Shown here: positions 9,434 through 27,031 of the stretch, piece by piece
Position numbering within the stretch: the first letter of the stretch is position 1
How the letters are laid out: the number at the start of each line of letters is the position of its first letter
IMG/VR virus record: IMGVR_UViG_3300025389_001063
Source of the DNA: a virus
Lineage: Duplodnaviria; Caudoviricetes
Strand: one strand, 5' to 3'
Length of the DNA stretch: 64,000 nt
Position numbers and translations under genes: made by a program
Notes under the pieces: generated by a model
What the model was told of the DNA's origin: nothing
Database searches by the model: none
What the model saw: the letters and a program-made list of their open reading frames with translations, nothing else

Positions 9434-10057
9434 ATGAGAGTAAGCAAAGCCCAATTTACTAATGATCCAAGTATTAGAAACGCAATTAGTGTTGATAGCG
9501 TTCTTTCACTTGACATGAAATACTTTGATAAAGAAGGTTTTGAACTCAACAAACTCGAGCAGGCATATTACAAAGTTAATAGCATACACATTGGACATAC
9601 CCTATATCACATCTGTTGCCAACAAGAATGGATAATAGGATCTTATGAACCTCTACAAGGTCCTTACTTTGATCATTGTATGATCTTAACAAGATTTGAT
9701 TATCAAGGTGCTGCTCGTGAACAATTAGAGAAATTTACTCCAAGAAGACCATGCCTAAACAAACTACTAAAAATAAAACCAAAGTATGGCGTTGATGTTA
9801 GCATGGAATATCAATGGCCGGATGGTGATATCTCAGAAATCTTCCATATTGAAATAGATCGTTATAGTAAAGACGAAATACTAGAGTGGAAAGAAAAATT
9901 AGAAAACATTGTTCTTAATACCGATTGGGCAGATGCTATGAACAGCATCATGCTTCGCAAATCAGAATGGGAACTAATGAACGCCGATGATCAAAGTGAT
10001 TGGCGTTGTCAATTTTTAGGATTACCTAGAGCATACGATACAATTAAGGTTTTATAA
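9434..10057 (+). CDS. hypothetical protein
   Basis: 207-aa ORF; ATAAATA at 9422-9428 lies 5 nt before the ATG and no SD is evident. Confidence 0.65.
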
Positions 10058-11228: not shown

Positions 11229-11256
11229 TGTATTACTTATTAATAAATATTGTCTC

Positions 11257-11853
11257 ATGAAATCGTTTGTGATATATCTTCCGGGTCATACCCTAACTGA
11301 AGAACACTTGCCCACTTTACAAAAAAGTGCTAAAAAACACAATTGGAATGTTGAACTCTTTGAAGGTATAGATGGTAGAAAAGTTCCTTTTACACATAAG
11401 ATAGATCATAGATATCCCAAAGCAGTTTCTGAATTAGAAAGACCCGGAGTTCGTGGTTGTTTTATGAGTCACTATCTACTTTGGAAGAAATGTTTAGAAT
11501 TAAATGAAACAATTGGCATCTTTGAAAGCGATATTATCTTTTATAAAAGTCCGCCATTACTAACAAAAGAATACGACCTTGTAAAATTAGATGGATTTAA
11601 GAGAGCCAAACCTGCGTCTACAGGTAATTGGCATAAAGGTGCTCATGCTTATATCTTACACCCAAGTGGTGCTAAAAAAATGGTAGATTGGACAGACACC
11701 TGGGGAGCCAGTCCAGCAGACTTTATGTTAGGTAACAAGGTTGTTAATATGAAATATGATTATGATGAACGAGTTAAATTAGCCAATCTAGGTTCTAGTC
11801 TTACTAGGAATTTAGAAGAAGAGATGTTAAACTTACAAAATAAGGAGATATAA
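11257..11853 (+). CDS. family 25 glycosyltransferase
   Basis: [24 protein letters not shown] and IFESD are GT25/Lex2B-type motifs. Start refined to ATG 11257. Confidence 0.8.
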
Positions 11854-12392: not shown

Positions 12393-15062
12393 ATGTCATA
12401 TGTGGATGGAATTTTTGATAGAACAAATGATCAAATTAAAATTGTTGAGAGAGTAGACGGCAAGAGACATTATAAAGAATATCCTGCTCGTTATGTCTTT
12501 TATTATCCAGATGCTAAAGGTAAGTACGAAAGCGTATATGGAGAAAAGTTAAGTCGTGTTAGTGCTCGCAATCAGAAGGACTTTCACAAAGAACTTAAAA
12601 TACATTCTGGAAAAAGAATGTACGAAAGCGACATTAATCCGATTTTCAAATGTTTAGAAGAACACTACTTAAACATAGATGCCCCGGAGTTACACATTGC
12701 GTTTTTCGATATTGAGACTGATTTTGATCCTGAGCGAGGCTTTGCTGATCCTAGTGACCCTTTTATGGGTATCACTGCCATTTCGGTACATCTTAAATGG
12801 TTAAACAGATTAGTAACACTTGCTGTTCCTCCTAAAGGATTAACAGTAGAACAAGCACAAGAACAATGTGCTGAATTTGAAGATTGTTTTATATTTGCTC
12901 GTGAAGCAGATATGCTAGAAACATTCCTTGATTTAATAGATGACGCAGATATATTAAGTGGTTGGAATTCGGAAGGTTACGACGTTCCTTATACTGTTAA
13001 TCGAGTAGCAAGAGTCTTAAGCAAAGAAGATACTAGACGTTTCTGCTTGTGGGATCAATTTCCCAAGAAACGAGAATTTGAAAAGTACGGACGTCAAATG
13101 GTTACATATGACTTTGTTGGTCGCGTACATCTTGACAGTCTTGAACTTTATAGAAAATACACTTATGAAGAAAGACATACATATCGACTTGATGCTATCG
13201 GTGAGATGGAAATAGGCGAACGTAAAACTGTTTACGAAGGCACACTTGATCAACTTTATAACAATGACTTTAGAACATTTATTGAATATAACAGGCAAGA
13301 CGTCGCACTACTTAACAAACTTGATGACAAATTAAGATTTATTGATTTGAGTAACGAACTTGCTCATGCTAACACCGTTCTACTTCAAACAACTATGGGT
13401 GCCGTTGCTGTTACTGAACAAGCAATTATAAATGAGGCTCATCGTCGAGGACTAATTGTTCCTAATCGTCCAAAGCGTGATGAAAGCGAAAATACACAAG
13501 CCGCAGGTGCTTATGTCGCTTATCCAAAAAAGGGATTACACGATTGGATCGGCAGTATGGATATTAACTCACTGTATCCAAGTGCTATTAGAGCATTGAA
13601 CATGGCTCCAGAAACAATCATTGGTCAGTTACGTCCGGAACATACAGACGAATACATCGAAACACAAATGAGATTACATAAGAAATCATTTGCTGCGGCA
13701 TGGGAAGGTCGATTCTCTACTTTTGAATATGATTGGGTTATGGATAAAGACAAAGGCAAAGAAATTACTGTTGATTGGGAGAATGGTGAATCAACTGTAA
13801 TGAGTGGAGCAGAGATTTATAAACTAATCTTTGATAGTCATAATCCTTGGATGATTACTTCCAATGGCACAATCTTTACACATGAGTTTGAAGGTGTTAT
13901 TCCTGGACTTCTAAAGCGTTGGTATGCCGAACGTAAAGAACTTCAGGCAAAGGCCAAAGAAGCATTAAAAGCAGATAACAAAGTAGAACATGCTTTTTGG
14001 GATAAGCGTCAGTTAGTTAAAAAGATTAACTTGAACAGTTTGTATGGTGCTATTCTTAATGCTGGTTGTCGTTTCTTCGATAAGCGTATTGGACAATCAA
14101 CTACTCTTGTTGGTAGGCAGGTTGCTAAACATATGGCATCAAAAGTTAATGAGATTGTAGCAGGAGAATATGATCACATTGGTAAGGCTATTATATATGG
14201 TGATACCGACTCTGTTTATTTCTCAGCATACAATGTCTTAAAGAAAGATATTGAGGCTGGAAACATTCCCTGGAGTAAAGATAATGTTATTAGCCTCTAT
14301 GATCAAATATCAGATGAAGTAAATGGAACATTCTCCAACTTCATGCTAAATGCCTTCCACTGTCCAAAGAGTCGCGGTGAAGTTATTAAGGCTGGTCGTG
14401 AAATTGTTGCCAGCAAAGGCTTGTTCATTACTAAAAAGCGTTATGCTGTTCTTTATTATGATTCAGAAGGCAAGAGATATGACGTTGATGATAAACCAGG
14501 CAAGATCAAGGCAATGGGCTTAGACCTTAAGAGATCAGATACCCCAGAGTTCATGCAAGACTTTTTAAGTAAGATCCTTGATCGCGTTCTAAATAATGCC
14601 AAGGAGGAAGAAATTCTTGATATGATTACACAATTTAGAATAGACTTTAAGAGTAGACCTGGATGGGAAAAAGGTTCTCCAAAGAGAGCAAACAATATTA
14701 CCGAATATATGAAGAAAGAACAAAAGGCCGGTAAGGCAAATATGCCGGGACATGTTAGAGCAAGTCTTAATTGGAATACTCTTAAGAAGATGTATAACGA
14801 TAACTATTCCATTACTATCAGTGACGGTTCAAAAGTTATTGTTTGTAAACTAAAACATAACCCAATGGGCTTTACATCTGTTGCGTATCCAGTTGACGAG
14901 CTAAGACTACCACAGTGGTTTAAAGATTTACCATTTGATGATGCTAGTATGGAAGCAGCAATTATCGATGCTAAACTAGACAACCTTATTGGCGTTCTAG
15001 AATGGAATCTTACGAGTACATCTGAATCTACAACGTTCAATAAATTATTTGCTTTTGACTGA
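12393..15062 (+). CDS. family B DNA polymerase (T4 gp43-like)
   Basis: ExoI FFDIETD; region II DINSLYPS; region III KINLNSLYG; region I YGDTDS. 889 aa with no visible intein. Confidence 0.95.
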   Translation: MSYVDGIFDRTNDQIKIVERVDGKRHYKEYPARYVFYYPDAKGKYESVYGEKLSRVSARNQKDFHKELKIHSGKRMYESDINPIFKCLEEHYLNIDAPELHIAFFDIETDFDPERGFADPSDPFMGITAISVHLKWLNRLVTLAVPPKGLTVEQAQEQCAEFEDCFIFAREADMLETFLDLIDDADILSGWNSEGYDVPYTVNRVARVLSKEDTRRFCLWDQFPKKREFEKYGRQMVTYDFVGRVHLDSLELYRKYTYEERHTYRLDAIGEMEIGERKTVYEGTLDQLYNNDFRTFIEYNRQDVALLNKLDDKLRFIDLSNELAHANTVLLQTTMGAVAVTEQAIINEAHRRGLIVPNRPKRDESENTQAAGAYVAYPKKGLHDWIGSMDINSLYPSAIRALNMAPETIIGQLRPEHTDEYIETQMRLHKKSFAAAWEGRFSTFEYDWVMDKDKGKEITVDWENGESTVMSGAEIYKLIFDSHNPWMITSNGTIFTHEFEGVIPGLLKRWYAERKELQAKAKEALKADNKVEHAFWDKRQLVKKINLNSLYGAILNAGCRFFDKRIGQSTTLVGRQVAKHMASKVNEIVAGEYDHIGKAIIYGDTDSVYFSAYNVLKKDIEAGNIPWSKDNVISLYDQISDEVNGTFSNFMLNAFHCPKSRGEVIKAGREIVASKGLFITKKRYAVLYYDSEGKRYDVDDKPGKIKAMGLDLKRSDTPEFMQDFLSKILDRVLNNAKEEEILDMITQFRIDFKSRPGWEKGSPKRANNITEYMKKEQKAGKANMPGHVRASLNWNTLKKMYNDNYSITISDGSKVIVCKLKHNPMGFTSVAYPVDELRLPQWFKDLPFDDASMEAAIIDAKLDNLIGVLEWNLTSTSESTTFNKLFAFD

Positions 15063-15097: not shown

Positions 15098-15829
15098 ATG
15101 TTAGACTTTTTAAGAGATTTAGTTCAACACACCCACTCACTAGGTGTTATTGACCTTGTAAAGATTACAGGCACAAAAGATTCAACTGCTATTGACGCAA
15201 TGGCAGAGAATAGAACAGTTATTGTTCAGGCAGAAACAAAGAATCCAGTTAAGGAAGTAAGTGGTACATTTGGTATGCCTAACCTTAACAAGTTAGACTT
15301 ACACTTAAAGAATCCAGAGTATAAAGAAGGTGCTCATATTGAAGTTGTTTGGGATAAGCGTAACGGAGAAGATACACCAGTTGAAATACTTTTTGAAAAT
15401 GCTGCTGGCGACTTTAAGAATGAATATAAGTTAATGGGTCAAGCACTTATCAATGAGAAACTAAAGACTGTTAAGTTCAAGGGTGCTACTTGGCAAGTTG
15501 AGTTTGAACCAAGCGTTACAAGTATTGCTCGTATGAAATTACAGGCTGCGGCACATACAGAGGAATCAGTATTCCTTGTTAAGACAGACAACAATGATCT
15601 TAAAGTGTTCTTTGGTGATGCTAGTACACACGAAGGTAGTTTTGTATTCCAACCAGGTATTACAGGTAAACTAAAACAGAATTGGTCTTATCCAATTGCT
15701 CAATTTATTAGCATACTTGGCCTAGGTGGCGACAAGACTATTAAGTTCAGTGACGACGGTGTTGCTCTTATTACTGTTGACAGTGGACTTGCTGTTTACA
15801 ACTATTACATTCCGGCACAAACAAAATGA
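15098..15829 (+). CDS. sliding clamp-like protein (gp45-like)
   Basis: About 243 aa, acidic, beta-rich, directly after the polymerase. GGAGA RBS favours ATG 15098 over 15086. Confidence 0.6.
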   Translation: MLDFLRDLVQHTHSLGVIDLVKITGTKDSTAIDAMAENRTVIVQAETKNPVKEVSGTFGMPNLNKLDLHLKNPEYKEGAHIEVVWDKRNGEDTPVEILFENAAGDFKNEYKLMGQALINEKLKTVKFKGATWQVEFEPSVTSIARMKLQAAAHTEESVFLVKTDNNDLKVFFGDASTHEGSFVFQPGITGKLKQNWSYPIAQFISILGLGGDKTIKFSDDGVALITVDSGLAVYNYYIPAQTK

Positions 15830-15933
15830 CCGAATTCGAGTTGCTTTATATCGGAACACCTATTGTATTAATAGTACTAGCAGGTATTATTATTTTAATA
15901 TGCTATCTGCTAGAGAAAAAAGGACTTTTATGA
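15826..15933 (+). CDS. 35-aa single-transmembrane miniprotein
   Basis: MTEFELLYIGTPIVLIVLAGIIILICYLLEKKGLL*; ATGA overlaps with both neighbours. Found manually. Confidence 0.6.
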   Translation: MTEFELLYIGTPIVLIVLAGIIILICYLLEKKGLL

Positions 15934-17471
15934 ACGAGAATTTAACGGCAACACAGAATGACTATGCGGTTTTCCTACCTGCCGTTAGTACTTTCTATTC
16001 AACATTTATAGGGAAACAACGATTTAGCAACTATGTAGATCCTACTCGAATACCAGCAGGATTTACTAACGGTGTCGAAGGATTAAACTTCTTTGATCCA
16101 GAAAAAGGTTACTTCTATTACAAGTGGGGATTGTATTCAGCAGGTCATGCTGAATTAGATCTCAATAAGATTAGCGAAAAGGAAGATATGTTTCGCAAAC
16201 GACCACGCAACGGTGATAGCATTGTTGTTGGTGATAGTGGAGGCTTCCAGATCGGTAAAGGCGTTTGGGAAGGTGATTGGAAAGATCCTAATTGTCCTAA
16301 GGCCAAGAAGAAAAGAGAACAAGTCCTTGCTTGGATGGATGCTCTTATGGACTATGGAATGATTCTCGATATTCCGGCATGGGTTGCTCGTAGTCCGGCA
16401 GGTGCTAAAGCAACTGGTATTAGTTCTTATCAAGAAGCAGTTAATGCTACATTCATTAACAATGATTATTTTATTAGAAACAGAAATGGGAGTTGTAAGT
16501 TTTTAAATGTTTTACAAGGTGAAAACCATACCGAGGCCGACGATTGGTACGATCGTCAAAAAAAGTATAGCGATCCTAAAGTATATCCAAATGAACATTT
16601 CAACGGGTGGTCTATGGGTGGTCAAAATATGTGCGATGTTCATCTTGTTTTACGTCGTCTTGTGGCTCTTCGTTATGATGGGCTAATTGAAAAAGGTAAA
16701 CAAGATTGGATGCATTTTCTTGGTACAAGTAAACTAGAGTGGGCATGTTTATTAACTGATATACAACGAGCAGTTCGTAAATATCACAACGAGAACTTTA
16801 CTGTTTCTTTTGATTGTGCTAGTCCTTTTCTTGCTACTGCTAATGGACAAGTTTATATTCAGACAGAAACTCCACATCATAAGAAGTGGACATATCGAAT
16901 GGTTCCTTCTATAGATGATAAAAAATATGCTACAGATACAAGAACATTCCGTGATGCTGTTTTACAAGATGGTATTTTTAAGAACTTTACCGACTCTCCA
17001 ATTAGTTCACGTTCTTTAGTCAAAGATGTTTGTATCTATAAGCCAGGCGATCTAAATAAGAATGGTAAGGAAGGTAGAACTTCTTGGGATAGTTTTTCAT
17101 ATGCCATTCAAATGGGACATAATGTATGGATGCATATTAATTCGGTTCAAGAAGCAAATAGACAATATGATAATAAAGTGATTCCAAACATGTTATTTAT
17201 GGACGGATTTGATAGGCTTTATTTCAAAGATGTAGTGGATAGAATCTTTGAGACTGATGATCGCGACAAAGCATTAGAACTCGTCGACGATTATAACAAG
17301 TTCTGGATTAGCATTATCGGAACAAGAGGTGCTACTGGAAAAAAGACCGTCAATTCTTCAACATTCTTTAATAAACATTTCGACGTTGAAGAAACGCCGG
17401 TCGAACATCATCTAGATGACAGCGGTCTAGATGAAAGTAATCTTGAAAAGTTAGAGGAGTCTGTAGAATGA
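15930..17471 (+). CDS. dpdA: TGT-fold 7-deazaguanine DNA transglycosylase (DpdA/DpdA2-like)
   Basis: GDSGGFQIG, MILDIP, WMHFLGT and FDCAS match TGT-family catalytic and substrate motifs; clustered with folE and queE. Start refined to ATG 15930. Confidence 0.75.
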   Translation: MNENLTATQNDYAVFLPAVSTFYSTFIGKQRFSNYVDPTRIPAGFTNGVEGLNFFDPEKGYFYYKWGLYSAGHAELDLNKISEKEDMFRKRPRNGDSIVVGDSGGFQIGKGVWEGDWKDPNCPKAKKKREQVLAWMDALMDYGMILDIPAWVARSPAGAKATGISSYQEAVNATFINNDYFIRNRNGSCKFLNVLQGENHTEADDWYDRQKKYSDPKVYPNEHFNGWSMGGQNMCDVHLVLRRLVALRYDGLIEKGKQDWMHFLGTSKLEWACLLTDIQRAVRKYHNENFTVSFDCASPFLATANGQVYIQTETPHHKKWTYRMVPSIDDKKYATDTRTFRDAVLQDGIFKNFTDSPISSRSLVKDVCIYKPGDLNKNGKEGRTSWDSFSYAIQMGHNVWMHINSVQEANRQYDNKVIPNMLFMDGFDRLYFKDVVDRIFETDDRDKALELVDDYNKFWISIIGTRGATGKKTVNSSTFFNKHFDVEETPVEHHLDDSGLDESNLEKLEESVE

Positions 17472-17671
17472 CTGATGACAAACTAAATTCACATTACAGA
17501 GTAGTAAAAGCAAGACATGACGAACTTGACAAAAAGATCGAGGAAGCATATAATCACTATGTTAGTGATGACGAACTTCATAAGATGAAAGTTGAGAAAC
17601 TACATCTTAAAGAAGAAATGGCTAAAATTGAAGCAATTAAAAGTGGTTTTCACGGATATCAAGCAACCTAA
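17468..17671 (+). CDS. small coiled-coil protein (DUF465/YdcH-like)
   Basis: 67 aa with pattern H..LD..I.......D..L..MK..KL.LK.EM. Confidence 0.55.
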   Translation: MTDDKLNSHYRVVKARHDELDKKIEEAYNHYVSDDELHKMKVEKLHLKEEMAKIEAIKSGFHGYQAT

Positions 17672-17680
17672 GGAAATAAA

Positions 17681-18274
17681 ATGAAGAGAGACTACGACAA
17701 TGGTGTTAAAGATGATGTCAAATTCTTTGTTGGCACGGAAATAGAGCATACTCCTGCTTACGAAAAGAAAACACTCTTTGTCGTAGGCTTACAGAATCCA
17801 GATAAGGTTGCTAAACTTGCTCAAGCAATGGATATAGATCATATCTATCTCGGTGCTAATCATAGTTTTAATAATACTAATCTTATGTACTGGGAGGCAG
17901 TTATTTTAGAATTACTTAAAAGAGACTTTTGGGTAACTTTAGATTTTGATTACAAATATTATGAAGATATTATGGATAGTCTTGCTTATTGGAATGAACA
18001 TGATAGATTTATTTCACAAATTAGTATAAAATTACCTTATACATCACTACTTAATTACAATACCTGTATTAAGATTGACGACAAAGACTTTAGAGCAACT
18101 AATCCGGGTGTATGGGTACATCATTTACACGACTTACAGGATCGTAAAAAGTTTACAGATTGGTCACAATATGGCAAAGACACTCCAATAGTTGTAGATG
18201 AACCTAACGAAACTGCTACAACTGTTATAGAAGATGAAATTTTAATTGTGGAGACAGTATACAATGGCGCCTGA
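17681..18274 (+). CDS. hypothetical protein in the deazaguanine cluster
   Basis: 197-aa ORF with AAGGA RBS. Confidence 0.65.
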   Translation: MKRDYDNGVKDDVKFFVGTEIEHTPAYEKKTLFVVGLQNPDKVAKLAQAMDIDHIYLGANHSFNNTNLMYWEAVILELLKRDFWVTLDFDYKYYEDIMDSLAYWNEHDRFISQISIKLPYTSLLNYNTCIKIDDKDFRATNPGVWVHHLHDLQDRKKFTDWSQYGKDTPIVVDEPNETATTVIEDEILIVETVYNGA

Positions 18275-18626
18275 TAGTGGAATGATATGGGTTACTTTTC
18301 GTAAGGAAGGTATTCACAAATATCCAGCAGCATTAGATGATCCTAATCTTGCTGATGTTAGTTTTCTCGGTTATCCACATAGACATATGTTCCATTTCAA
18401 AGTTTGGATTGAAGTATTTCATGAAGACCGAGAAATTGAATTTATTCAATTTAAGCGTTGGCTAGAAAGTTTGTATAGCGGAACACTCGAATTAAGTTAC
18501 AAAAGTTGCGAAATGATTGCACAAGATTTATATCTTCAAATTAAACAAAAATATCCAGGGCGTGAGACTTGGATTGAAGTTAGTGAGGATGGAGAAAATG
18601 GCTGTTTCAAACAATGGAAAAACTAA
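18264..18626 (+). CDS. QueD-like T-fold protein with LxxxHRHxF motif (candidate DpdL CDG decarboxylase)
   Basis: LGYPHRHMFHF at 18366-18392 in place of canonical CxxxHGH; C-terminal SCEMIA. Start refined to 18264. Confidence 0.65.
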   Translation: MAPDSGMIWVTFRKEGIHKYPAALDDPNLADVSFLGYPHRHMFHFKVWIEVFHEDREIEFIQFKRWLESLYSGTLELSYKSCEMIAQDLYLQIKQKYPGRETWIEVSEDGENGCFKQWKN

Positions 18627-18639
18627 GGAGAACAATATA

Positions 18640-18846
18640 ATGGCGTTTAGTAGATATCCTGATATTAATAAAATCTTTGATGAATTAGATGCTTATCTAG
18701 CATTTTGTAAAGAGTTTGGTTACGTGTATAATGAGAAGGACTTATATAATTTCAAGACACCATATGGTCAATTTGATCGTTGGAAGCGAGGCCAAAGAAT
18801 AACAAACAATTGGAGAGAAGATAGATTCAATGTTGTATCTAGTTGA
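18640..18846 (+). CDS. hypothetical protein
   Basis: 68 aa (MAFSRYPDINKIF...) after an AAGGAG RBS. Start refined from 18517. Confidence 0.65.
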   Translation: MAFSRYPDINKIFDELDAYLAFCKEFGYVYNEKDLYNFKTPYGQFDRWKRGQRITNNWREDRFNVVSS

Positions 18847-19912
18847 TTTGGAACCAGTCGATACTCGTTATACTTCACAATGGAGAAAATATCTACCTCT
18901 TCAATTAAGAGATGCAGGTATTGAAACAACCATTATACCAGGAGGACATGTTCCACAAACTTTAACTCCAGGTGCTTTTTTAAACTTTGCCGGTACTAAT
19001 AATTACAAAAGCCAACAAATGTTAAGAATAAGTCAATTATTCTCAAATGGATCTATCAAGGACGGTGATTATTTCTTATATACCGATGCTTGGAACCCTA
19101 CCGTTATACAATTAAAGTATATGGCAGAATTACTAGGTATTAAGATTAAAATTGGTGGTATGTGGCATGCTGGTAGTTATGATCCTCAAGACTTTCTAGG
19201 TAGGCTCATAGGTGATGTTCCTTGGGTAAGAAATGCTGAGGCATCTATGTTTCATTGCTATGATCATAATTTCTTTGCTACCGAATTTCATCTCAAAATG
19301 TTTCTTAAAGAACTGTTTGGCGAAGATGACATTGAGGGATGGAAAGAATATTATCCAGGAACATTGCTTGTCGGATGGCCGATGGAATATCTTTACGAAT
19401 TATTAGCACCATATATGCCTGTTCCTAAAGAAAATATAATAGTATTTCCTCATAGACTAGCACCAGAAAAACAGCCTGAGATATTTGATGATCTTGCAAT
19501 GTCTATGGAAGATTATGAATACAAGTGGATTAAAGCACAAGAAACTGTATTAACAAAAAATGAATATTATAGATTGTTAGGTCAAAGTAAAATAGTCTTT
19601 AGTGCTAATTTACAAGAAACATTAGGTATAAGTGTATATGAAGGTGCAATGGTTGGATCATTCCCGTTAATGCCAAATAGATTAAGTTATAAAGAAATGT
19701 GGCCGGCAGATTCTCTGTATCCAAGTGAATGGACAGAAAGTTGGGATTCATACCTAGAACATAAAGACAAACTAATAAATGTTATACACCGAATAATGAA
19801 TTCGTATGATATACCAATGTTAGTTGAATCTAGAAGAATTGCCGAAGAAGTTGGTGAAAAATTCTTTAACGGTAAAGAGATTTATAAGACTATAATTGAC
19901 TCTACAACCTAA
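18830..19912 (+). CDS. GT-B fold glycosyltransferase in the deazaguanine cluster
   Basis: WHAG, VFPHRLAPEKQPE and QETLGISVYEG (E-x7-E) motifs. Confidence 0.7.
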   Translation: MLYLVDLEPVDTRYTSQWRKYLPLQLRDAGIETTIIPGGHVPQTLTPGAFLNFAGTNNYKSQQMLRISQLFSNGSIKDGDYFLYTDAWNPTVIQLKYMAELLGIKIKIGGMWHAGSYDPQDFLGRLIGDVPWVRNAEASMFHCYDHNFFATEFHLKMFLKELFGEDDIEGWKEYYPGTLLVGWPMEYLYELLAPYMPVPKENIIVFPHRLAPEKQPEIFDDLAMSMEDYEYKWIKAQETVLTKNEYYRLLGQSKIVFSANLQETLGISVYEGAMVGSFPLMPNRLSYKEMWPADSLYPSEWTESWDSYLEHKDKLINVIHRIMNSYDIPMLVESRRIAEEVGEKFFNGKEIYKTIIDSTT

Positions 19913-19924
19913 ATAGTATACAAT
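19896..19924 (+). promoter_or_regulatory. sigma70-type promoter for folE
   Basis: TTGACT (19896-901), 17 nt, TACAAT (19919-24). Confidence 0.55.
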
Positions 19925-19964
19925 TAACAAATCGCAATCCACTGCGTTAACATCGGAGAAAGAA

Positions 19965-20657
19965 ATGACAATGACTAACTGTACTTGCAATGGCACAGCC
20001 GCTGCTATTGCTCAACGTCTAAAAGATAAAGGCGTTAGATTTTTTTGTAATGATAATATTAGTGAATATATCTTTCCTGAAGAACACGATCTGCTTCTAG
20101 CAGAAGTCGAAGAAAACATGAAGAAGGTTCTCGAAAGTCTTGTCATTGATACAGAAAACGATCATAATACAAACGATACTGCTCATCGTGTTGCTAAAAT
20201 GTTTATGAATGAAATCTTTGCTGGTCGGTATGAGCCACAACCAAAGATTACAGCATTTCCAAATGCTAATTCTTATGATGAACTTTATGTAACTGGTCCC
20301 ATTACTATTCGTTCAACTTGTGCCCATCATTTTCAAGGTATTAGAGGTAGAGCATATATTGGAGTATTTCCAGGTAAAAATGTTATCGGATTAAGTAAAT
20401 TTAATCGTATCACAGATTGGATTGCTAGTCGTCCACAAATACAAGAAGAAATGACTGTACAAGTTGCTGATGCAATTGAAAAAGCAACAAAAGCAGAAGG
20501 TGTTGCTGTTCTCATACAAGCAGAACATTTGTGTATGACACATCGGGGTGTAAAAGAACACGAGAGTGATATGACAACTTCTATTATGCGTGGTGCTTTT
20601 AGATCTGATCCACATTTGAAACAAGAATTTTTTAATATAGTAGCGAGGATGAAATAA
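19965..20657 (+). CDS. folE: GTP cyclohydrolase I
   Basis: TAHRVAKM, STCAHHF, GLSKFNRI, RPQIQE and AEHLCMTHRG Zn/GTP motifs. Confidence 0.95.
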   Translation: MTMTNCTCNGTAAAIAQRLKDKGVRFFCNDNISEYIFPEEHDLLLAEVEENMKKVLESLVIDTENDHNTNDTAHRVAKMFMNEIFAGRYEPQPKITAFPNANSYDELYVTGPITIRSTCAHHFQGIRGRAYIGVFPGKNVIGLSKFNRITDWIASRPQIQEEMTVQVADAIEKATKAEGVAVLIQAEHLCMTHRGVKEHESDMTTSIMRGAFRSDPHLKQEFFNIVARMK

Positions 20658-21122
20658 ATGTCATGGCTAAAAGGTATGCTTGAAAATAGTAGTACAAGTA
20701 CAAGTAATGGAACATATGGAGTAGTAGGTGCTACAACTCCTTCCACGTTACCATATACATCTCCAACAACAAATATTGTAGGACCAACTCCTACTACTGT
20801 TCCTAATGGTGGATATTACAGTGGAAGTGGTGGCGGAAATATATCTACTACAACTTATCCATATGTTACAACAGGTACAGGTGGATTACAAAATAATTAT
20901 GGTAATAATATTCATATTAGTGGTACAAATCCTACATTAGCGACAGATAAAGTAAAAATTAATCTTAATGAATTAGGTGAATTAATATCTGTAATAAAAG
21001 AACGTTTATTAATCATTACACCAAATTTTGAAAAGATGGAAAAATATCAAGCATTAAAGAAAGCATACGATCATTATAAATTATTAGAATCGATGCTTGG
21101 AGACGAAGGTGACAAAAAATAA
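20658..21122 (+). CDS. hypothetical protein with Thr/Gly-rich N-terminus and helical C-terminus
   Basis: 154 aa; C-terminal KYQALKKAYDHYKLLESML. Confidence 0.6.
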   Translation: MSWLKGMLENSSTSTSNGTYGVVGATTPSTLPYTSPTTNIVGPTPTTVPNGGYYSGSGGGNISTTTYPYVTTGTGGLQNNYGNNIHISGTNPTLATDKVKINLNELGELISVIKERLLIITPNFEKMEKYQALKKAYDHYKLLESMLGDEGDKK

Positions 21123-21597
21123 TAGTATATGGGGTAAAGGTAAAAACGGTGAAGATCTTTGTATAACATCAGACATGCTAGATAGTTGGCAAAAACATGT
21201 TGATCAAATTAATTTGGAAAAAACAATGATTAATACAGGAACAATTACAATACCAAGTAACAATACTATAGATCTTAGTAATATCACTATTGATGCTAGT
21301 AGCAGTAACAATATGTATTACACTAATAGTGATGGAACAATAAGCACTATTACATTATCACCTCCAAGTGCTAGTAATACTTCTTCCACTTATACAATAG
21401 ACACCGAAAGATATTGGGATACTCACAGTGATTTTTTTCGACAAATGCGAGAATTTGAAGACATTATGCCTTCCTTGACAAAAGTCGAAGAAATGTGTAG
21501 TATGTATCCATCACTAGATAAAGCCTTTGAAAATTTCAAAGCCATTTATAATCTAGTTAAAGATGATTACGAGGCAAGAAAAAACAATGATACCTAA
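21109..21597 (+). CDS. hypothetical protein, probable paralogue of the upstream gene
   Basis: Thr/Ser/Asn-rich middle and C-terminal MYPSLDKAFENFKAIYNLV. GTG 21109 with GGAG RBS preferred over TTG 21097. Confidence 0.55.
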   Translation: MTKNNSIWGKGKNGEDLCITSDMLDSWQKHVDQINLEKTMINTGTITIPSNNTIDLSNITIDASSSNNMYYTNSDGTISTITLSPPSASNTSSTYTIDTERYWDTHSDFFRQMREFEDIMPSLTKVEEMCSMYPSLDKAFENFKAIYNLVKDDYEARKNNDT

Positions 21598-22084
21598 GAC
21601 ATATATCTCATGGCAAGACGTTCAAGGACATGTAAACAATATAGCAGTAAAACTATATCGAGATAATTGGACACCTGATTACATTGTAGGTATACATAGT
21701 GGTGGATCCATTCCTGCTGTTATGCTCTCTAAAATGTTAGGTATTAAATCATATAGTCTCGATGTTAGACTTCGCGACAACGACGAAGATCCAGAAACTA
21801 ATGCTTGGATGAGTGAAGATGCTTTTAATGGTATAAAGATTCTAGTTGTAGACGATATCAACGACAGTGGTGCTACTATTAATTGGATTAAAAAAGATTG
21901 GAAAGATAGTTCTTTGCCTTATGATATTAAATGGGATACTATATTTGGAGATAATGTAAAATTTGCTACAATGATTAATAATCTATCTAGTAATTCGACT
22001 GTAGATTATTACTCAACTGAGATTAATAAAGCAGAAAAAGACGAATGGATTGTTTTTCCTTGGGAAGATTTTTGGAGTAGATAA
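21587..22084 (+). CDS. type I phosphoribosyltransferase (purine PRTase-like)
   Basis: PRPP loop ILVVDDINDSGAT, DYIVGIHSGG and WIVFPWE. Start refined to 21587. Confidence 0.85.
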   Translation: MIPKTYISWQDVQGHVNNIAVKLYRDNWTPDYIVGIHSGGSIPAVMLSKMLGIKSYSLDVRLRDNDEDPETNAWMSEDAFNGIKILVVDDINDSGATINWIKKDWKDSSLPYDIKWDTIFGDNVKFATMINNLSSNSTVDYYSTEINKAEKDEWIVFPWEDFWSR

Positions 22085-22281
22085 TGGATAAGATAGCATA
22101 TTTTCTTTCAATCTTAGCAGGTATAATGTTAATTGTACTAACTGTAACTCATATGTCTCAAGCCAAAAAGTTTCTTGTTGATATTGAAACAGAATTAACA
22201 ACTATTAACAAATCTTTAAAACATTTGAATAGAGATTTTAGTAATTTTCCTCCCAACTTATCTGATCTAGAAAAAAGATAA
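22084..22281 (+). CDS. small membrane-anchored protein
   Basis: 65 aa with an N-terminal hydrophobic helix. Confidence 0.55.
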   Translation: MDKIAYFLSILAGIMLIVLTVTHMSQAKKFLVDIETELTTINKSLKHLNRDFSNFPPNLSDLEKR

Positions 22282-22283
22282 TA

Positions 22284-22312
22284 TTGACATTTACGTTTAG
22301 AAAGCGTATATT
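22284..22312 (+). promoter_or_regulatory. sigma70-type promoter for queE
   Basis: TTGACA (22284-89), 17 nt, TATATT (22307-12). Confidence 0.6.
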
Positions 22313-22318
22313 AATATT

Positions 22319-23170
22319 ATGAAAATCAAAATATCAGAAATCTTTTACAGTCTGCAAGGCGAAGGACAGTATATAGGTGTTCCTAGTATCTTTTTAAGAA
22401 CATTTGGATGTAATTTTACCTGCGGCGGATTTGGAATGCCACGAGGAAAAGTTTCTACTGAAAGAGATGAGATTGCTAAAAAATCTCTCGAATATATTGA
22501 TTATAAAAATTTGCCATTAGTTAGCACAGGTTGTGACAGTTATGCTTCTTGGGATCCTAGATTTAAACATCTATCACCTTTTATGGAAGTCGTAGATATT
22601 GTTGATCGTTTTCAAAAACTACTTCCAGATAGAAAGTTTGGAGAAAAACATTTAATTATTACAGGAGGCGAACCTTTATTAGGTTGGCAACGTTCTTATC
22701 CAGAATTAATTGCTGAGATTTATAATCGAGAAATGAATCTAAAATATTTGACTTTTGAAACTAATGGAACTCAACCATTAGAAGAAAATTTTAAAAAATT
22801 CTTAATCGAGTTAGTTGAAACATTTGGAATAGAAATTACATTTTCAATTAGTTCCAAACTTCCATGTAGTGGTGAAAAGTTTGATGATGCTATTAAACCA
22901 GAAGTTGTAAAAGATTATCTTACTATTCCAAACAGAAGTTATTTCAAATTTGTCATTGCTAATGAACAGGATGCATTAGATGCTCAAGCAGCATTAGGAG
23001 AATATAAGAAAGCAGGAATTGATATTCCAGTTTACTTAATGCCAATCGGTGGTACTAATTCAGTATACGAAATGAATGAAAGACAAGTTGCAGATTATGC
23101 TAGGGATATTGGATATAGGTTTAGTCCACGTATTCAAGTTCCACTATATAAAAATGAATGGGGGACCTAA
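22319..23170 (+). CDS. queE: 7-carboxy-7-deazaguanine synthase (radical SAM)
   Basis: EIFYSLQGEG, FLRTFGCNFTC...CDS with an insertion, TGGEP, ETNGT, FSPRIQ. Confidence 0.9.
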   Translation: MKIKISEIFYSLQGEGQYIGVPSIFLRTFGCNFTCGGFGMPRGKVSTERDEIAKKSLEYIDYKNLPLVSTGCDSYASWDPRFKHLSPFMEVVDIVDRFQKLLPDRKFGEKHLIITGGEPLLGWQRSYPELIAEIYNREMNLKYLTFETNGTQPLEENFKKFLIELVETFGIEITFSISSKLPCSGEKFDDAIKPEVVKDYLTIPNRSYFKFVIANEQDALDAQAALGEYKKAGIDIPVYLMPIGGTNSVYEMNERQVADYARDIGYRFSPRIQVPLYKNEWGT

Positions 23171-23508
23171 TGGGACTTTGGAATTGGATTTTACACGGTG
23201 CGTTTGAACCAAAAAAAGAAGAACAAGCAGTTGAGCAACCAAAAGTTAAAAAACCAAAATTAACAGAAAAAGAACGTGCTACAAAAAACAAAGAACCATT
23301 TGTACAAGTTCTAGAAACTCATGTTGATCCAAATAATCCAGCAAATGGATACTTTGAATTAGATTGGAACAGTTACTTCATTGACGATTTACGAAAAGCA
23401 GGTTATACTGGTAAAACTGAAGAGGAGATAATTGATCAATGGTTCAAACAATTATGCCAGAACATACTAGCAGAAGAACAAATGAACAAGGTAGTCCGAA
23501 TCACATGA
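23170..23508 (+). CDS. hypothetical protein
   Basis: TAATG-coupled to queE; FELDWN motif. Confidence 0.6.
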   Translation: MGLWNWILHGAFEPKKEEQAVEQPKVKKPKLTEKERATKNKEPFVQVLETHVDPNNPANGYFELDWNSYFIDDLRKAGYTGKTEEEIIDQWFKQLCQNILAEEQMNKVVRIT

Positions 23509-24470
23509 ACTATATAATTGTAGATACTGCTAACACATTTTTTCGAGCCCGACATGTTGTTCGCGGAGATGCTGATATTAAAATAGGAATGGCACTACAT
23601 GTTACATTGGCAAGTATTAAAAAAGCATGGCAAGACTTTAACGGCAATCATGTCGTCTTTTGCTTGGAGGGTCGTTCTTGGCGCAAGGACTATTATCCAC
23701 CTTATAAGCGTAATAGGACAGAGGCTCGCGCCGCTCTAACTGAAAAGGAGGCGGAAGAGGATAAACTTTTCTGGGAAACATTTGATAAGTTTAAAGAATT
23801 TATTATCGAAAAAACTAATTGTACTGTACTTCAAAACGATCAACTTGAGGCTGATGACCTTATTGCAGGATGGATTGAATCTCATCCTAATGACAATCAC
23901 ATTATTATCTCTACTGATTCCGATTTTGTCCAGCTTATTGCTCCAAATGTTAAACAATATCACGGAATTAACGAACACATCATTACAAATGAAGGAACCT
24001 TTACTCTTAAAGGAAAACCGGTTATTGATAATAAAACTAAACAACCCAAAGGAGCAATTGATCCAGAATGGCTTCTTTTTGAAAAGTGTATGCGTGGTGA
24101 CCCGACTGATAATGTCTTTTCAGCCTATCCAAAGGTGCGTAAGAATAAACTTCAAGAAGCTTATGAAGATCGTAGAAATAAAGGTTTTGCATGGAATAAT
24201 CTTATGTTACAGCGTTGGGTTGATCACGAAGGCGCTGAACATCGTGTACTCGATGATTATGAACGCAATCGCAGACTTATTGATCTTAAATCTCAACCGG
24301 ATGAAATTAAACAAATCATCCAAGATGTTGTTAGAACAAATAGTATTCCTAAGAATGTTGAACAAGTAGGAATAAGATTAATGAAATTCTGCGGATTATT
24401 TGATCTTGTTAAAATTTCAGAACAAGCACAACAATATGTTGAACCCTTAAATGCAAAATATCCGGAGTAA
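23505..24470 (+). CDS. 5'-3' exonuclease / T4 RNase H-like (FEN fold)
   Basis: IVDTAN, EADDLIA, STDSDFVQL and GDPTDNV acidic motifs. Start refined to 23505. Confidence 0.85.
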   Translation: MNYIIVDTANTFFRARHVVRGDADIKIGMALHVTLASIKKAWQDFNGNHVVFCLEGRSWRKDYYPPYKRNRTEARAALTEKEAEEDKLFWETFDKFKEFIIEKTNCTVLQNDQLEADDLIAGWIESHPNDNHIIISTDSDFVQLIAPNVKQYHGINEHIITNEGTFTLKGKPVIDNKTKQPKGAIDPEWLLFEKCMRGDPTDNVFSAYPKVRKNKLQEAYEDRRNKGFAWNNLMLQRWVDHEGAEHRVLDDYERNRRLIDLKSQPDEIKQIIQDVVRTNSIPKNVEQVGIRLMKFCGLFDLVKISEQAQQYVEPLNAKYPE

Positions 24471-25948: not shown

Positions 25949-27031
25949 ATGTCCGATCTTAGCGTTCGCACCGTAAGCATTAATGGAGCCAAAGCGGCTC
26001 TCCGACACGCATTTTCTAAGCGTCGTCCAATTTTCATCTGGGGCCCCCCAGGCATTGGTAAATCCGATGCTATTCATCAGTTAGGTACTGAACTTGAATC
26101 TCATGTTATCGACGTTCGACTTTCACTTTGGGAACCCACTGATATTAAAGGTATTCCATATTATAATTCTAATGACAATACAATGTCGTGGGCACCTCCG
26201 GTAGAATTACCTACTGAGGAATTTGCTAAACAATTCAAAAACATTATCTTATTCTTAGACGAGATGAATTCGGCTCCGCCCGCGGTGCAGGCTGCGGCTT
26301 ACCAACTAATTCTTAACCGTCGAGTTGGTACTTACAAGTTGCCTGATAATGTGCTCGTCGTTGCCGCTGGTAACCGCGAGGCAGATAAAGGTGTTACGTA
26401 TCGTATGCCTGCACCGCTGAGCAATCGTTTTGTTCACTTAGAACTGCGAGTTGACTTTGAAGATTGGTTAAACTGGGCTGTTGATAACAAGATACATAAA
26501 GACGTTGTTGGTTACCTGTCATTTGCTAAACAGGACTTGTATGACTTTGATCCAAAGACTGCAAGCCGTTCGTTTGCTACACCGCGTTCTTGGCAGTTCG
26601 TTAGCGAATTGTTAGACGATGACATCAACGATTCTACTACAGCAGATCTTGTATCAGGTGCTGTCGGTGAAGGTACGGCTGTTAAATTTATGGCACACCG
26701 CAAGGTTGCTGGACGTATGCCTAATCCAACTGACATTTTACATGGCAAGGTTAAAGAACTTAAAGTTAAAGAGATCTCCGCTATGTATTCGTTAACAGTA
26801 TCTTTGTGCTACGAACTCAAAGATATTGCTCAGAAGAAAGACAAGAAGTTTGATGATTTTGCTGATAACTTCTTCCGCTTTATGATGGATAATTTTGAGA
26901 CTGAACTTGTAGTTATGGGTGCTAAAATTGCTCTTACTAACTATGACTTGCCTCTAGATCCAAGCAAGATGAAGAACTTTGACGAGTTCCACGATCGCTT
27001 TGGCAAGTATGTTATCGCTGCGAACCAGTGA
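25949..27031 (+). CDS. MoxR-family AAA+ ATPase
   Basis: Walker A GPPGIGKS, Walker B LFLDEMN, sensor AAGNR, Arg finger LSNRF. Confidence 0.85.
   Translation: MSDLSVRTVSINGAKAALRHAFSKRRPIFIWGPPGIGKSDAIHQLGTELESHVIDVRLSLWEPTDIKGIPYYNSNDNTMSWAPPVELPTEEFAKQFKNIILFLDEMNSAPPAVQAAAYQLILNRRVGTYKLPDNVLVVAAGNREADKGVTYRMPAPLSNRFVHLELRVDFEDWLNWAVDNKIHKDVVGYLSFAKQDLYDFDPKTASRSFATPRSWQFVSELLDDDINDSTTADLVSGAVGEGTAVKFMAHRKVAGRMPNPTDILHGKVKELKVKEISAMYSLTVSLCYELKDIAQKKDKKFDDFADNFFRFMMDNFETELVVMGAKIALTNYDLPLDPSKMKNFDEFHDRFGKYVIAANQ

What the first reader, a model, noticed from the sequence alone, without database searches (positions are those of the whole stretch)
15930..23170. Non-canonical 7-deazaguanine DNA-modification cluster carrying extra enzymes
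Seen: a TGT-fold gene, a QueD-like T-fold gene, folE and queE in one co-oriented block directly after the polymerase and clamp, with a GT-B glycosyltransferase, a PRTase and several unknown genes interleaved. No canonical CxxxHGH QueD, QueF, ArcS or Gat-QueC is present, and there is no QueC inside the cluster. Established: FolE-QueD-QueE make CDG, and phage DpdA exchanges G in DNA for deazaguanine bases as anti-restriction. Inference: this gene set does not map cleanly onto the standard dPreQ0/dG+/dADG routes and may give dDG, dCDG or an undescribed (possibly glycosylated) base.
Basis: partly seen in the sequence, partly recalled or inferred. Interest (0 to 1): 0.8.

Follow-up and report, generated by a model that had tools for sequence, protein, structure and literature searches.

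The report
Phage DpdL-type 7-deazaguanine DNA-modification cluster
An uncultured jumbo phage carries a conserved gene set that most likely swaps guanine in its DNA for 7-deazaguanine to escape host nucleases; the route was published in 2023, but this version has an unnamed transglycosylase family and three conserved extra genes nobody has explained.

Summary
Directly after a family-B polymerase, one co-oriented block encodes:
- a 513-aa TGT-fold protein
- a QueD-like T-fold protein
- a GT4-type glycosyltransferase
- FolE, a purine-type PRTase and QueE

There is no CxxxHGH motif anywhere in the 64 kb, and no QueC in the cluster.

The T-fold gene carries LGYPHRHMF, the published DpdL signature LxxxHRHxF. 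It is 60% identical to ACP17 DpdL and 34.5% to phiST DpdL. The core therefore fits the FolE-QueD-QueE-DpdL-DpdA route to 2'-deoxy-7-deazaguanine (Cui et al. 2023). Four related contigs keep a canonical QueD about 10-60 kb from the cluster, so the missing QueD probably lies outside the window.

Three things look new:
- The transglycosylase belongs to a large family (989 clusters at 50% identity) with no Pfam or PHROG model. It also occurs in PA5oct, whose DNA resists G-site restriction enzymes.
- GT4 sits beside or within about 3 kb of DpdL in 18 cultured-phage records and in 42 of 42 informative metagenomic loci.
- A PRTase and a 197-aa protein of unknown fold recur in the cluster.

The final base is unmeasured: dDG is most likely, and an elaborated derivative is possible. 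First-reader notes in this scan describe similar clusters in other genomes.

The parts
12393..15062 (+). Family-B DNA polymerase. Context: the cluster lies inside the replication module.
   Evidence: PF00136 1.8e-39 and PF03104 8e-17. 51% identical to the Sinorhizobium phage Phosso polymerase.
15098..15829 (+). 243-247-aa protein, possibly a sliding clamp. Context, unverified.
   Evidence: phrog_12062, function unknown. About 30% identical to Phosso gp221, annotated as a sliding clamp, and to PA5oct EST35_0314, annotated as a structural protein.
15930..17471 (+). TGT-fold DpdA-like transglycosylase of the PA5oct type, 513 aa. Predicted to exchange guanine in DNA for a 7-deazaguanine base.
   Evidence: AF2 pLDDT 88.5. 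TGT is the best PDB match: Foldseek prob 1.0, VIA Z 18.2. D102, S103, G105 (DSGGFQ), H262 and D295 (FDC) are invariant in 52 homologues. hhalign to the ACP17 and BUDD DpdA-type proteins gives 96-97% probability. 34% identical to PA5oct EST35_0316.
17468..17671 (+). DUF465 small protein; role unknown, variably present in relatives.
   Evidence: PF04325 3.7e-9. Detected in only some of the 80 related loci.
17681..18274 (+). 197-aa conserved accessory protein of unknown fold ('g197').
   Evidence: No Pfam, PHROG or NCBIfam hit. AF2 pLDDT 76, alternating strand-helix core, no convincing PDB or AFDB match. 33% identical to the ACP17 gene just upstream of its DpdA. Present in 42 of 42 informative related loci.
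18264..18626 (+). DpdL: a QueD paralogue and predicted 7-carboxy-7-deazaguanine decarboxylase.
   Evidence: LGYPHRHMF at 18366-18392 matches LxxxHRHxF (signature from PMC10516641). 60% identical to ACP17 DpdL, 34.5% to phiST DpdL. The alignment shows Leu in place of the QueD Cys.
18598..18846 (+). Small ORF of about 82 aa between DpdL and the glycosyltransferase; function unknown.
   Evidence: Called as a gene on the same phage in other metagenomes. Conserved in part of the related loci.
18830..19912 (+). GT4-like (GT-B, EX7E) glycosyltransferase, conserved beside or close to DpdL; substrate unknown.
   Evidence: E263 and E271 are invariant. PF00534 is hit by 21 of 28 family members. Atlas neighbours are GT1-family viral clusters. 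48% identical to the Phosso protein, 44% to PA5oct, 39% to ACP17, each adjacent to DpdL.
19965..20657 (+). FolE, GTP cyclohydrolase I: first step from GTP.
   Evidence: PF01227 9.8e-51. NCBIfam FolE models 1.2e-53.
20658..21597 (+). Two overlapping low-complexity ORFs (154 aa and about 162 aa), Ser/Thr/Asn-rich N-terminal parts; function unknown.
   Evidence: No family hits. Only partly conserved in relatives.
21563..22084 (+). Type I purine phosphoribosyltransferase, Gpt/XPRT-like.
   Evidence: PF00156 9.2e-13. phrog_8995 6.6e-23. NF006613 3.6e-15, below its cut-off. Present in 23 of 26 related loci. A homologue annotated XGPRT lies in the BUCT-ZZ01 cluster.
22084..22281 (+). 65-aa ORF; function unknown.
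   Evidence: Weak phrog_2911 hit only.
22319..23170 (+). QueE, radical-SAM CDG synthase, with a split cluster motif C31-x3-C35-x36-C72.
   Evidence: phrog_2076 7.4e-50 over the full length. QueE NCBIfam models hit below their cut-offs. The three Cys are invariant in the alignment with nine phage QueEs.
35898..36734 (+). Orphan QueC-like PP-loop ATPase outside the cluster; any link to this pathway is unproven.
   Evidence: SGGIDS motif. C-terminal Cys motif in the translation. PF01171 2.3e-4. phrog_1550 'QueC-like' 6e-6, C-terminal part only. Atlas neighbours carry PF06508 in 14-86% of members. No hit in cultured phages.

Best explanation
This is a DpdL-type 7-deazaguanine DNA-modification module of an uncultured jumbo phage related to Phosso, Atu_ph07 and PA5oct.

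Proposed pathway:
1. FolE converts GTP to dihydroneopterin triphosphate.
2. A QueD, probably encoded outside this window or supplied by the host, makes CPH4.
3. QueE makes 7-carboxy-7-deazaguanine (CDG).
4. DpdL removes the carboxyl group to give 7-deazaguanine.
5. The 513-aa TGT-fold protein exchanges guanine in newly replicated phage DNA for that base, giving 2'-deoxy-7-deazaguanine (dDG). This blunts restriction enzymes whose sites contain G.
6. The Gpt-like PRTase most plausibly returns the excised guanine to the GMP/GTP pool that feeds FolE.

The GT4 glycosyltransferase and the 197-aa protein are conserved accessories whose step is unknown.

Shown here: the gene identities, the folds, the motifs and the conservation. 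Inferred: every chemical step, the DNA target, and the identity of the final base.
For: - DpdL signature and homology to the proteins named in PMC10516641.
- FolE and QueE family hits.
- TGT fold with the DSGGFQ and FDC motifs invariant across 52 homologues.
- Profile relationship to the transglycosylase-type genes that sit beside DpdL in ACP17 and BUDD: 96-97% probability.
- No QueC above the Pfam cut-off in whole PA5oct, Phosso and ACP17 genomes or in four large related contigs. This is the gene pattern the 2023 paper links to dDG.
- phiST, with FolE, QueD, QueE, DpdL and DpdA3, has all its G replaced by dDG.
- PA5oct carries the same transglycosylase, GT and DpdL genes. [quoted passage not shown]
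- The block sits in the replication module. Phage 9g has the same polymerase-clamp-DpdA-FolE order.
- The module is strictly conserved in related contigs. DpdL, GT and g197 are present in 42 of 42 loci with at least 5 kb downstream. Among loci with at least 9.5 kb downstream, FolE is in 26 of 26, PRTase in 23 of 26 and QueE in 22 of 26.
Against: - No base has been measured for this phage or for any phage with this transglycosylase type.
- DpdL's decarboxylase activity is itself only predicted. Co-expression of ACP17 or phiST dpdL with dpdA in E. coli gave no dDG.
- The glycosyltransferase is tightly linked to DpdL, yet it is absent from the phiST group, the only phages in which dDG was measured. 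The route in the GT-bearing phages may therefore end elsewhere.
- No QueD lies within the 64 kb.
- A QueC-like PP-loop gene lies 13 kb away.
Confidence: 0.5

Rival explanations
1. Same pathway up to CDG or 7-deazaguanine, but the final DNA base is a further elaborated derivative, not plain dDG. The GT4 enzyme, possibly with the 197-aa protein, would add a sugar or another group. It could act on the inserted base, on a free-base or nucleotide intermediate, or on another base. The result would be a deazaguanine derivative not among the eight described.
For: - GT4 homologues occur in 23 cultured-phage records. 18 of these also carry DpdL, beside the GT or within about 3 kb: PA5oct group, ACP17, Phosso, BUDD, X1, BUCT-ZZ01, BCSR5.
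- GT4 is present in 42 of 42 informative related loci, and its EX7E catalytic motif is invariant.
- BUCT-ZZ01 has a second GT1-family gene in the same cluster.
- dpdL plus dpdA alone gave no dDG, and the authors suggest that other enzymes may be needed.
- GT-B enzymes that glycosylate DNA bases are established in T-even phages (established knowledge).
- No paper in the searchable library links a glycosyltransferase to deazaguanine DNA.
Against: - Unsubstituted 7-deazaguanine offers no obvious hydroxyl for O-glycosylation.
- No hydroxylase or reductase lies in the cluster.
- The phiST group reaches complete dDG replacement without this GT.
- The GT fold was not modelled here, and its acceptor is unknown.
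Confidence: 0.28
2. Pre-replicative route. The PRTase converts 7-deazaguanine or CDG plus PRPP into a nucleotide, as PRTases do in toyocamycin and tubercidin biosynthesis. The modified dNTP is then incorporated by the phage polymerase. The TGT-fold protein would play a secondary or repair-like part.
For: - A purine-type PRTase is embedded in the cluster and conserved in 23 of 26 related loci.
- A homologue lies in the BUCT-ZZ01 cluster and a weak one in PA5oct.
- Other first-reader notes in this scan describe PRTases between queD and queE in other phage genomes (unchecked leads).
Against: - The window has no MazG, dGTPase or deazapurine-specific kinase or reductase.
- An intact transglycosylase with conserved catalytic motifs is always present.
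- The published view is that every known deazaguanine DNA modification is post-replicative.
- The PRTase's best family matches are guanine/xanthine salvage enzymes, which fits recycling of excised guanine equally well.
Confidence: 0.1
3. The cluster does not modify phage DNA. The TGT-fold enzyme acts on tRNA, or the genes produce a free deazapurine metabolite or nucleoside.
For: - The closest solved structures are all tRNA-guanine transglycosylases.
- No direct DNA evidence exists for this phage.
Against: - There is no sequence-level similarity to tRNA TGTs: the Pfam TGT model is hit by 2 of 52 members, best E 0.04, and the PDB profile search is empty.
- The nearest viral structural neighbours include large uncharacterised TGT-fold proteins of phages, among them a Vibrio phage nt-1 protein and phiST DpdA3.
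- The block lies between the polymerase and the 5'-3' exonuclease.
- PA5oct DNA is restriction-resistant at G-containing sites.
Confidence: 0.05

Closest known systems
dDG system of Cellulophaga phage phiST: FolE, QueD, QueE, DpdL, DpdA3 (Cui et al., NAR 2023, PMC10516641)
   Same: - DpdL with the LxxxHRHxF signature, 34.5% identical.
- FolE and QueE present, no QueC.
- The genes lie next to the replication genes.
- Expected product is dDG.
   Different: - The transglycosylase is not a recognisable DpdA3: BLAST finds nothing, and hhalign gives 66% probability over 83 columns.
- phiST has a MazG and a small ATPase in its cluster, and no GT4, PRTase or g197.
- QueD is in the phiST cluster but is absent from this window.
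Acidovorax phage ACP17 cluster (its dpdL and dpdA were tested in PMC10516641)
   Same: - ACP17 gene order: QueD, FolE, g197 homologue, transglycosylase, GT4 homologue, DpdL, QueE.
- DpdL 60% identical, GT 39%, g197 33%.
- The transglycosylase is profile-related at 96.6% probability.
   Different: - The ACP17 transglycosylase is 424 aa and shows no BLAST-level similarity.
- No PRTase was detected in the ACP17 locus.
- The paper reports no measured base for ACP17 DNA. In E. coli, dpdL plus dpdA gave no dDG.
Pseudomonas jumbo phage PA5oct (Wroclawvirus) locus EST35_0316-0322
   Same: - Same transglycosylase family (34% identical over the full length), followed by the GT4 homologue (44%), DpdL (55%), a weak PRTase homologue, QueE and RNaseH, downstream of PolB.
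- No QueC in the whole genome.
- Its DNA resists several G-site restriction enzymes and is sensed by END nucleases.
   Different: - The PA5oct DpdL motif reads HFH rather than HRH.
- FolE was not detected in the 19.6-kb PA5oct locus.
- Two PTPS/QueD genes lie about 55 kb away.
- The preprint names QueE and a PTPS but no transglycosylase, and did not identify the base.
DpdA1-type system of Enterobacteria phage 9g (dG+ route with Gat-QueC)
   Same: The order polymerase, clamp, transglycosylase, FolE and the rest of the pathway is the same.
   Different: - 9g DpdA is 317 aa and has no detectable profile similarity: hhalign 0.5% probability.
- 9g carries QueD and Gat-QueC, and has no DpdL, GT4 or PRTase.

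Membership tests
DpdL (QueD paralogue, predicted CDG decarboxylase) | Signature LxxxHRHxF in place of the QueD motif CxxxHGH | tested here: met
   LGYPHRHMF at 18366-18392 is the only such motif in six frames. The signature is as stated in PMC10516641 section 16.
DpdL (QueD paralogue, predicted CDG decarboxylase) | Sequence homology to the named DpdL proteins of phiST and ACP17 | tested here: met
   tblastn: 60% identity, E 2e-37 to ACP17; 34.5%, E 2e-9 to phiST. In the alignment it groups with the DpdLs and apart from four phage QueDs.
DpdL (QueD paralogue, predicted CDG decarboxylase) | Genome context: DpdA, FolE and QueE present, QueC absent | tested here: met
   No QueC above the cut-off in related complete genomes. 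Caveat: a QueC-like PP-loop ORF lies at 35898-36734.
DpdL (QueD paralogue, predicted CDG decarboxylase) | Decarboxylation of CDG to 7-deazaguanine | not testable with these tools
   Unproven for the family itself: expression in E. coli gave no dDG.
DpdA / TGT superfamily (DNA guanine transglycosylase) | TGT-type (beta/alpha)8 barrel fold | tested here: met
   AF2 pLDDT 88.5, pTM 0.89. Foldseek probability 1.0 to Z. mobilis TGT. VIA Z 18.2, 302 residues aligned, rmsd 4.3 to 2ash.
DpdA / TGT superfamily (DNA guanine transglycosylase) | Catalytic aspartates in the DSGG[FY]Q and FDC motifs (TGT Asp102 and Asp280; the numbering is recalled, not superposed here) | tested here: met
   D102, S103, G105 and D295 are invariant, and G104 and Q107 at least 90% conserved, in 52 homologues down to 26% identity. 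The same DSGG-Q, H-LG and SYD blocks align with the ACP17 and BUDD proteins.
DpdA / TGT superfamily (DNA guanine transglycosylase) | Membership of a named subfamily (bDpdA, DpdA1-4) | tested here: inconclusive
   DpdA1 of 9g: hhalign 0.5% probability. DpdA3 of phiST: 66%, partial; Foldseek BFVD E 6e-3. The ACP17 and BUDD type: 96-97%, but their subfamily label could not be read because no supplement is held. bDpdA, DpdA2 and DpdA4 were not compared by sequence.
DpdA / TGT superfamily (DNA guanine transglycosylase) | Base exchange on DNA rather than tRNA | not testable with these tools
   Indirect evidence only: the replication-module context, and the restriction-resistant DNA of PA5oct.
QueE (CDG synthase, radical SAM) | Full-length match to a QueE family and three cluster cysteines | tested here: met
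   phrog_2076 7.4e-50 over residues 1-282. C31, C35 and C72 are invariant across nine phage QueEs, with a 36-residue insert between the second and third Cys. The NCBIfam QueE models are hit only below their cut-offs.
GT4 / GT-B retaining glycosyltransferases | C-terminal EX7E motif and a Glycos_transf_1 domain | tested here: met
   E263 and E271 are invariant. PF00534 is hit by 21 of 28 members, best E 1.7e-5, all below the gathering score. The Atlas feature neighbours are GT1-family clusters.
GT4 / GT-B retaining glycosyltransferases | Two-Rossmann GT-B fold | not tested
The profile search against PDB sequences returned nothing.
QueC (preQ0 synthase), for ORF 35898-36734 | Match to the QueC family model over the PP-loop and the Zn-binding C-terminus | tested here: inconclusive
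   No QueC hit at E <= 0.001 in the Pfam scan. NCBIfam gives only TilS_N at 2.7e-5. phrog_1550 'QueC-like' 6e-6 covers the C-terminal part only. SGGIDS and a C-terminal Cys cluster are present. Atlas neighbours carry PF06508 in 14-86% of members.

The most novel reading that the evidence does not exclude
The conserved pairing of DpdL with a GT4 glycosyltransferase, helped by the 197-aa protein and the PRTase, produces a glycosylated or otherwise elaborated 7-deazaguanine in DNA. This would be a base outside the eight described derivatives. It would be inserted by a transglycosylase family that has no name yet. It would be widespread in environmental jumbo phages and present in cultured PA5oct, Phosso and ACP17.
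Probability: 0.25. Interest if true: 0.85.

Novelty: new variant of a known kind. Interest (0 to 1): 0.58.

Why it matters
- 7-Deazaguanine DNA modifications are a main phage counter-defence against restriction enzymes. They are also targets of newer modification-sensing nucleases such as the END nucleases.
- This locus ties a very large, unannotated family of TGT-fold proteins to that chemistry. The family has more than 7,600 clusters at 90% identity and 989 at 50%, and no Pfam or PHROG model.
- It gives a transglycosylase candidate for PA5oct, which the 2025 preprint lacked.
- It points to three conserved genes (GT4, PRTase, g197) that may be the 'other unknown enzymes' the 2023 paper invoked when dDG could not be reconstituted.
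- All of this can be tested directly in phages that are already in culture.

Tried and rejected
- Megablast of the 9-kb region against cultured phages: no match.
- Exact-pattern search of IMG/VR for the window's own DNA: no match.
- No whole genome is held for the window. Absence of QueD or QueC from this phage as a whole therefore could not be tested. The ENA contig L003 is not searchable as a record.
- Sequence and profile searches of the transglycosylase and of the GT against PDB sequences found nothing useful.
- The 197-aa protein was folded (pLDDT 76). PDB and AFDB searches gave only weak partial beta/alpha matches (GH5, tRNase Z, SbcD) and its own family. Atlas feature neighbours (GH101, GH123-like, about 0.9) were treated as noise-level leads.
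- hhalign found no homologue of the 197-aa protein among the small genes at the matching positions of the Phosso, PA5oct, BUCT-ZZ01 or BUDD clusters.
- I considered that the 197-aa protein replaces QueD. I rejected this because ACP17 has both.
- I considered that the window phage truly lacks QueD. This is unlikely, since close relatives keep one about 10-60 kb from the cluster.
- Supplementary tables of the 2023 paper are not held.
- The promoter and terminator scan showed no clear enrichment: 49 promoter-like sites against 55 expected, 11 terminator-like against 5.5.
- No complex prediction was run, because no binding claim is made.

Full report
**What is in the sequence.** The window is AT-rich (GC 0.27-0.40 in 2-kb steps) and looks like a jumbo phage. 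The family-B polymerase at 12393-15062 is most similar to those of Sinorhizobium phage Phosso (51%), Agrobacterium phage Atu_ph07 (47%) and the Rak2-like giants. The same 197-aa protein is found letter for letter on metagenomic contigs of 351-352 kb.

Downstream of the polymerase, every gene from 15098 to 24470 is on the + strand. The start codons used below are those of gene calls made on the same phage in other metagenomes. The genes in order:
- 15098-15829: a 243-aa protein
- 15930-17471: a 513-aa protein
- 17468-17671: a DUF465 protein
- 17681-18274: a 197-aa protein
- 18264-18626: a 120-aa T-fold protein
- 18598-18846: a small ORF
- 18830-19912: a 360-aa protein
- 19965-20657: FolE
- 20658-21597: two low-complexity ORFs
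- 21563-22084: a PRTase
- 22084-22281: a 65-aa ORF
- 22319-23170: QueE
- 23454-24470: a 5'-3' exonuclease

**Checking the observation.** FolE, the PRTase and QueE are plain family hits.

The 513-aa protein has no hit in Pfam, PHROGs, NCBIfam or PDB sequences. It does have a DSGGFQ motif. An AlphaFold2 model built on 52 homologues is confident (pLDDT 88.5, pTM 0.89). Its best solved matches are all tRNA-guanine transglycosylases: Foldseek probability 1.0, E 7e-7, and VIA Z 18.2 with 302 aligned residues. Across homologues down to 26% identity, D102, S103, G105, H262, G265 and D295 are invariant. DSGG[FY]Q and FDC are, from my recollection of the TGT literature, the motifs that hold the two catalytic aspartates. 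I did not superpose the structures.

The 360-aa protein has an invariant E263-x7-E271 motif. Of 28 family members, 21 hit PF00534 weakly over that stretch, and its Atlas neighbours are viral GT1-family clusters. The GT-B/GT4 call is therefore reasonable, but the protein was not folded here.

A six-frame motif scan finds no C...HGH anywhere in the 64 kb.

**The T-fold gene is DpdL.** The same scan finds one LxxxHRHxF motif, LGYPHRHMF at 18366-18392. Cui et al. 2023 (PMC10516641, section 16) give exactly this signature for DpdL. DpdL is the QueD paralogue they propose as the CDG decarboxylase that yields 7-deazaguanine. The window protein is 60% identical to the ACP17 protein that the paper calls DpdL and 34.5% identical to the phiST one. 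In an alignment it groups with the DpdLs. It has Leu where four phage QueDs have the catalytic Cys, and it lacks the QueD central insert.

The paper reports that phiST (FolE, QueD, QueE, DpdL, DpdA3, no QueC) has all its dG replaced by dDG.

**The missing QueD and QueC.** No whole genome is held for the window, so I looked at relatives.
- QueD: all six cultured phages searched that pair DpdL with this GT (PA5oct, Phosso, ACP17, BUDD, BCSR5, BUCT-ZZ01) have a PTPS/QueD above the Pfam cut-off, often far from the cluster.
- QueD in close relatives: among environmental contigs, G004, G005, G007 and G008 carry a PTPS/QueD match about 10-60 kb from the transglycosylase gene. The ORFs read in G007 and G008 have the CxxxHGY motif. 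G001, estimated 72% complete, has none.
- The window reaches only 16 kb upstream and 48 kb downstream of the gene. A QueD just outside it is the simplest reading.
- QueC: no match above the cut-off in whole PA5oct, Phosso and ACP17 genomes or in four large related contigs.
- The window does hold an orphan PP-loop ORF at 35898-36734, with SGGIDS and a C-terminal Cys cluster. It hits a 'QueC-like' PHROG only over its C-terminus, and its Atlas neighbours are viral clusters that are partly QueC-positive. It has no homologue in cultured phages. It lies in a different, tail-proximal gene group. I treat its link to this pathway as unproven.

**A large unnamed transglycosylase family.**
- The 513-aa protein has more than 7,600 relatives at 90% clustering, all 'hypothetical' and without a Pfam domain. 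It has 989 representative clusters at 50% identity.
- Among cultured phages it occurs only in the PA5oct group (34%), Phosso (28%) and one Vibrio phage.
- BLAST sees no similarity to phiST DpdA3 or to the ACP17 424-aa protein.
- Profile comparison links it at 96-97% probability to the ACP17 and BUDD proteins that sit beside DpdL. The link to phiST DpdA3 is weak (66%). There is none to 9g DpdA1 (0.5%).
- In BFVD its structural neighbours are large uncharacterised phage TGT-fold proteins, including one from Vibrio phage nt-1, and more distantly phiST DpdA3.
- The Pfam TGT model touches only 2 of 52 members.
- I therefore file it in the DpdA/TGT superfamily, in a subfamily I could not name.

**The extra genes are conserved, not incidental.**
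- In 42 IMG/VR loci with at least 5 kb downstream of the transglycosylase gene, the 197-aa gene, DpdL and GT4 are all present in the same order.
- In 26 loci with at least 9.5 kb downstream, FolE is present in 26, the PRTase in 23 and QueE in 22.
- Among cultured phages, GT4 homologues occur in 23 records. Of these, 18 also carry DpdL, beside the GT or within about 3 kb.
- BUCT-ZZ01, a T4-like cyanophage, also has an XGPRT-annotated PRTase and a second GT1-family gene in its cluster.
- The 197-aa protein has a homologue just upstream of the ACP17 transglycosylase, and none that I could detect in PA5oct, Phosso, BUDD or BUCT-ZZ01. Its model has an alternating strand-helix core with no convincing structural relative.
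- The phiST group, the only DpdL phages with a measured base, lacks GT4, the PRTase and the 197-aa gene.
- The 2023 paper mentions neither a glycosyltransferase nor a phosphoribosyltransferase. Literature searches found no paper that links either to deazaguanine DNA.

[quoted passage not shown] PA5oct is also targeted by modification-sensing END nucleases. The preprint notes QueE and a PTPS in the genome, but it names no transglycosylase and does not identify the base. PA5oct genes EST35_0316-0322 are the syntenic counterpart of this cluster.

**Mechanism and rivals.**
- Best reading (0.5): GTP goes to CDG through FolE, an off-window QueD and QueE. DpdL gives 7-deazaguanine. The TGT-fold enzyme then exchanges it for guanine in DNA after replication. 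The Gpt-like PRTase recycles the excised guanine.
- Main rival (0.28): GT4, perhaps with the 197-aa protein, elaborates the base. This would explain why dpdL plus dpdA alone gave no dDG in E. coli. The chemistry is not obvious for an unsubstituted deazapurine.
- Nucleotide-level, pre-replicative route through the PRTase (0.1): it lacks any dGTP-clearing enzyme in the window.
- tRNA or free-metabolite role (0.05): it fits the context poorly.

**Verdict.** The system is a new variant of a known kind: the DpdL/dDG pathway with an unnamed transglycosylase family and three conserved accessory genes that are not in the literature I could search. Earlier first-reader notes of this scan reached similar readings on this stretch and on other genomes. 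I reached the DpdL assignment independently before reading them.

Noticed in passing
window 10044-11258 (-): A phage-encoded 5-aminolevulinate synthase. TIGR01821 scores 567 bits against a cut-off of 338. It sits upstream of a GT25-family gene and the polymerase, and is conserved in the close relative L003.
   Followed up: partly
window 27105-28811 (+): A complete 568-aa acyl-CoA dehydrogenase with all four ACAD domains. It lies between a MoxR-type AAA ATPase (25949-27031) and a DUF2201 metallopeptidase/VWA protein (28850-30094).
   Followed up: no
window 22319-23170 (+): The QueE radical-SAM cluster motif is split as C31-x3-C35-x36-C72. The window clade, PA5oct, BUDD and BUCT-ZZ01 share the roughly 36-residue insert between the second and third Cys. 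ACP17 and 9g have the compact Cx3Cx2C form.
   Followed up: partly
window 35898-36734 (+) and 36731-37813 (-): An orphan QueC-like PP-loop ATPase sits back to back with a radical-SAM enzyme that hits radical-SAM/SPASM maturase models, next to a C92 permuted-papain amidase (37814-38332). This may be a separate tailoring locus. Distant homologues of the PP-loop protein (24% identity) exist in the related contigs G001 and G004.
   Followed up: partly
L018 (IMGVR_UViG_3300017949_001012): One related contig has the transglycosylase and DUF465 genes followed directly by the 5'-3' exonuclease. The 197-aa gene, DpdL, GT4, FolE, PRTase and QueE are not between them. This may be a natural deletion or a relocation of the biosynthetic genes.
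   Followed up: no
L093 and L002 (Sinorhizobium phage Phosso): In Phosso the module is split. PolB, the clamp-annotated gene, a 177-aa gene annotated 'glycosylase', DpdL, GT, FolE and QueE lie at 145-156 kb. The transglycosylase lies at 323 kb next to the primase and helicase, and QueD at 372 kb.
   Followed up: partly
window 20658-21122 and 21109-21597 (+): Two adjacent ORFs with Ser/Thr/Asn/Gly-rich N-terminal halves and no family hit. Only one of them is detectable in most relatives.
   Followed up: no
window 31602-32474 (+) and 4955-9388 (+): ThyX, the flavin-dependent thymidylate synthase (PF02511 1.2e-56), and a 1477-aa protein with collagen-like repeats.
   Followed up: no
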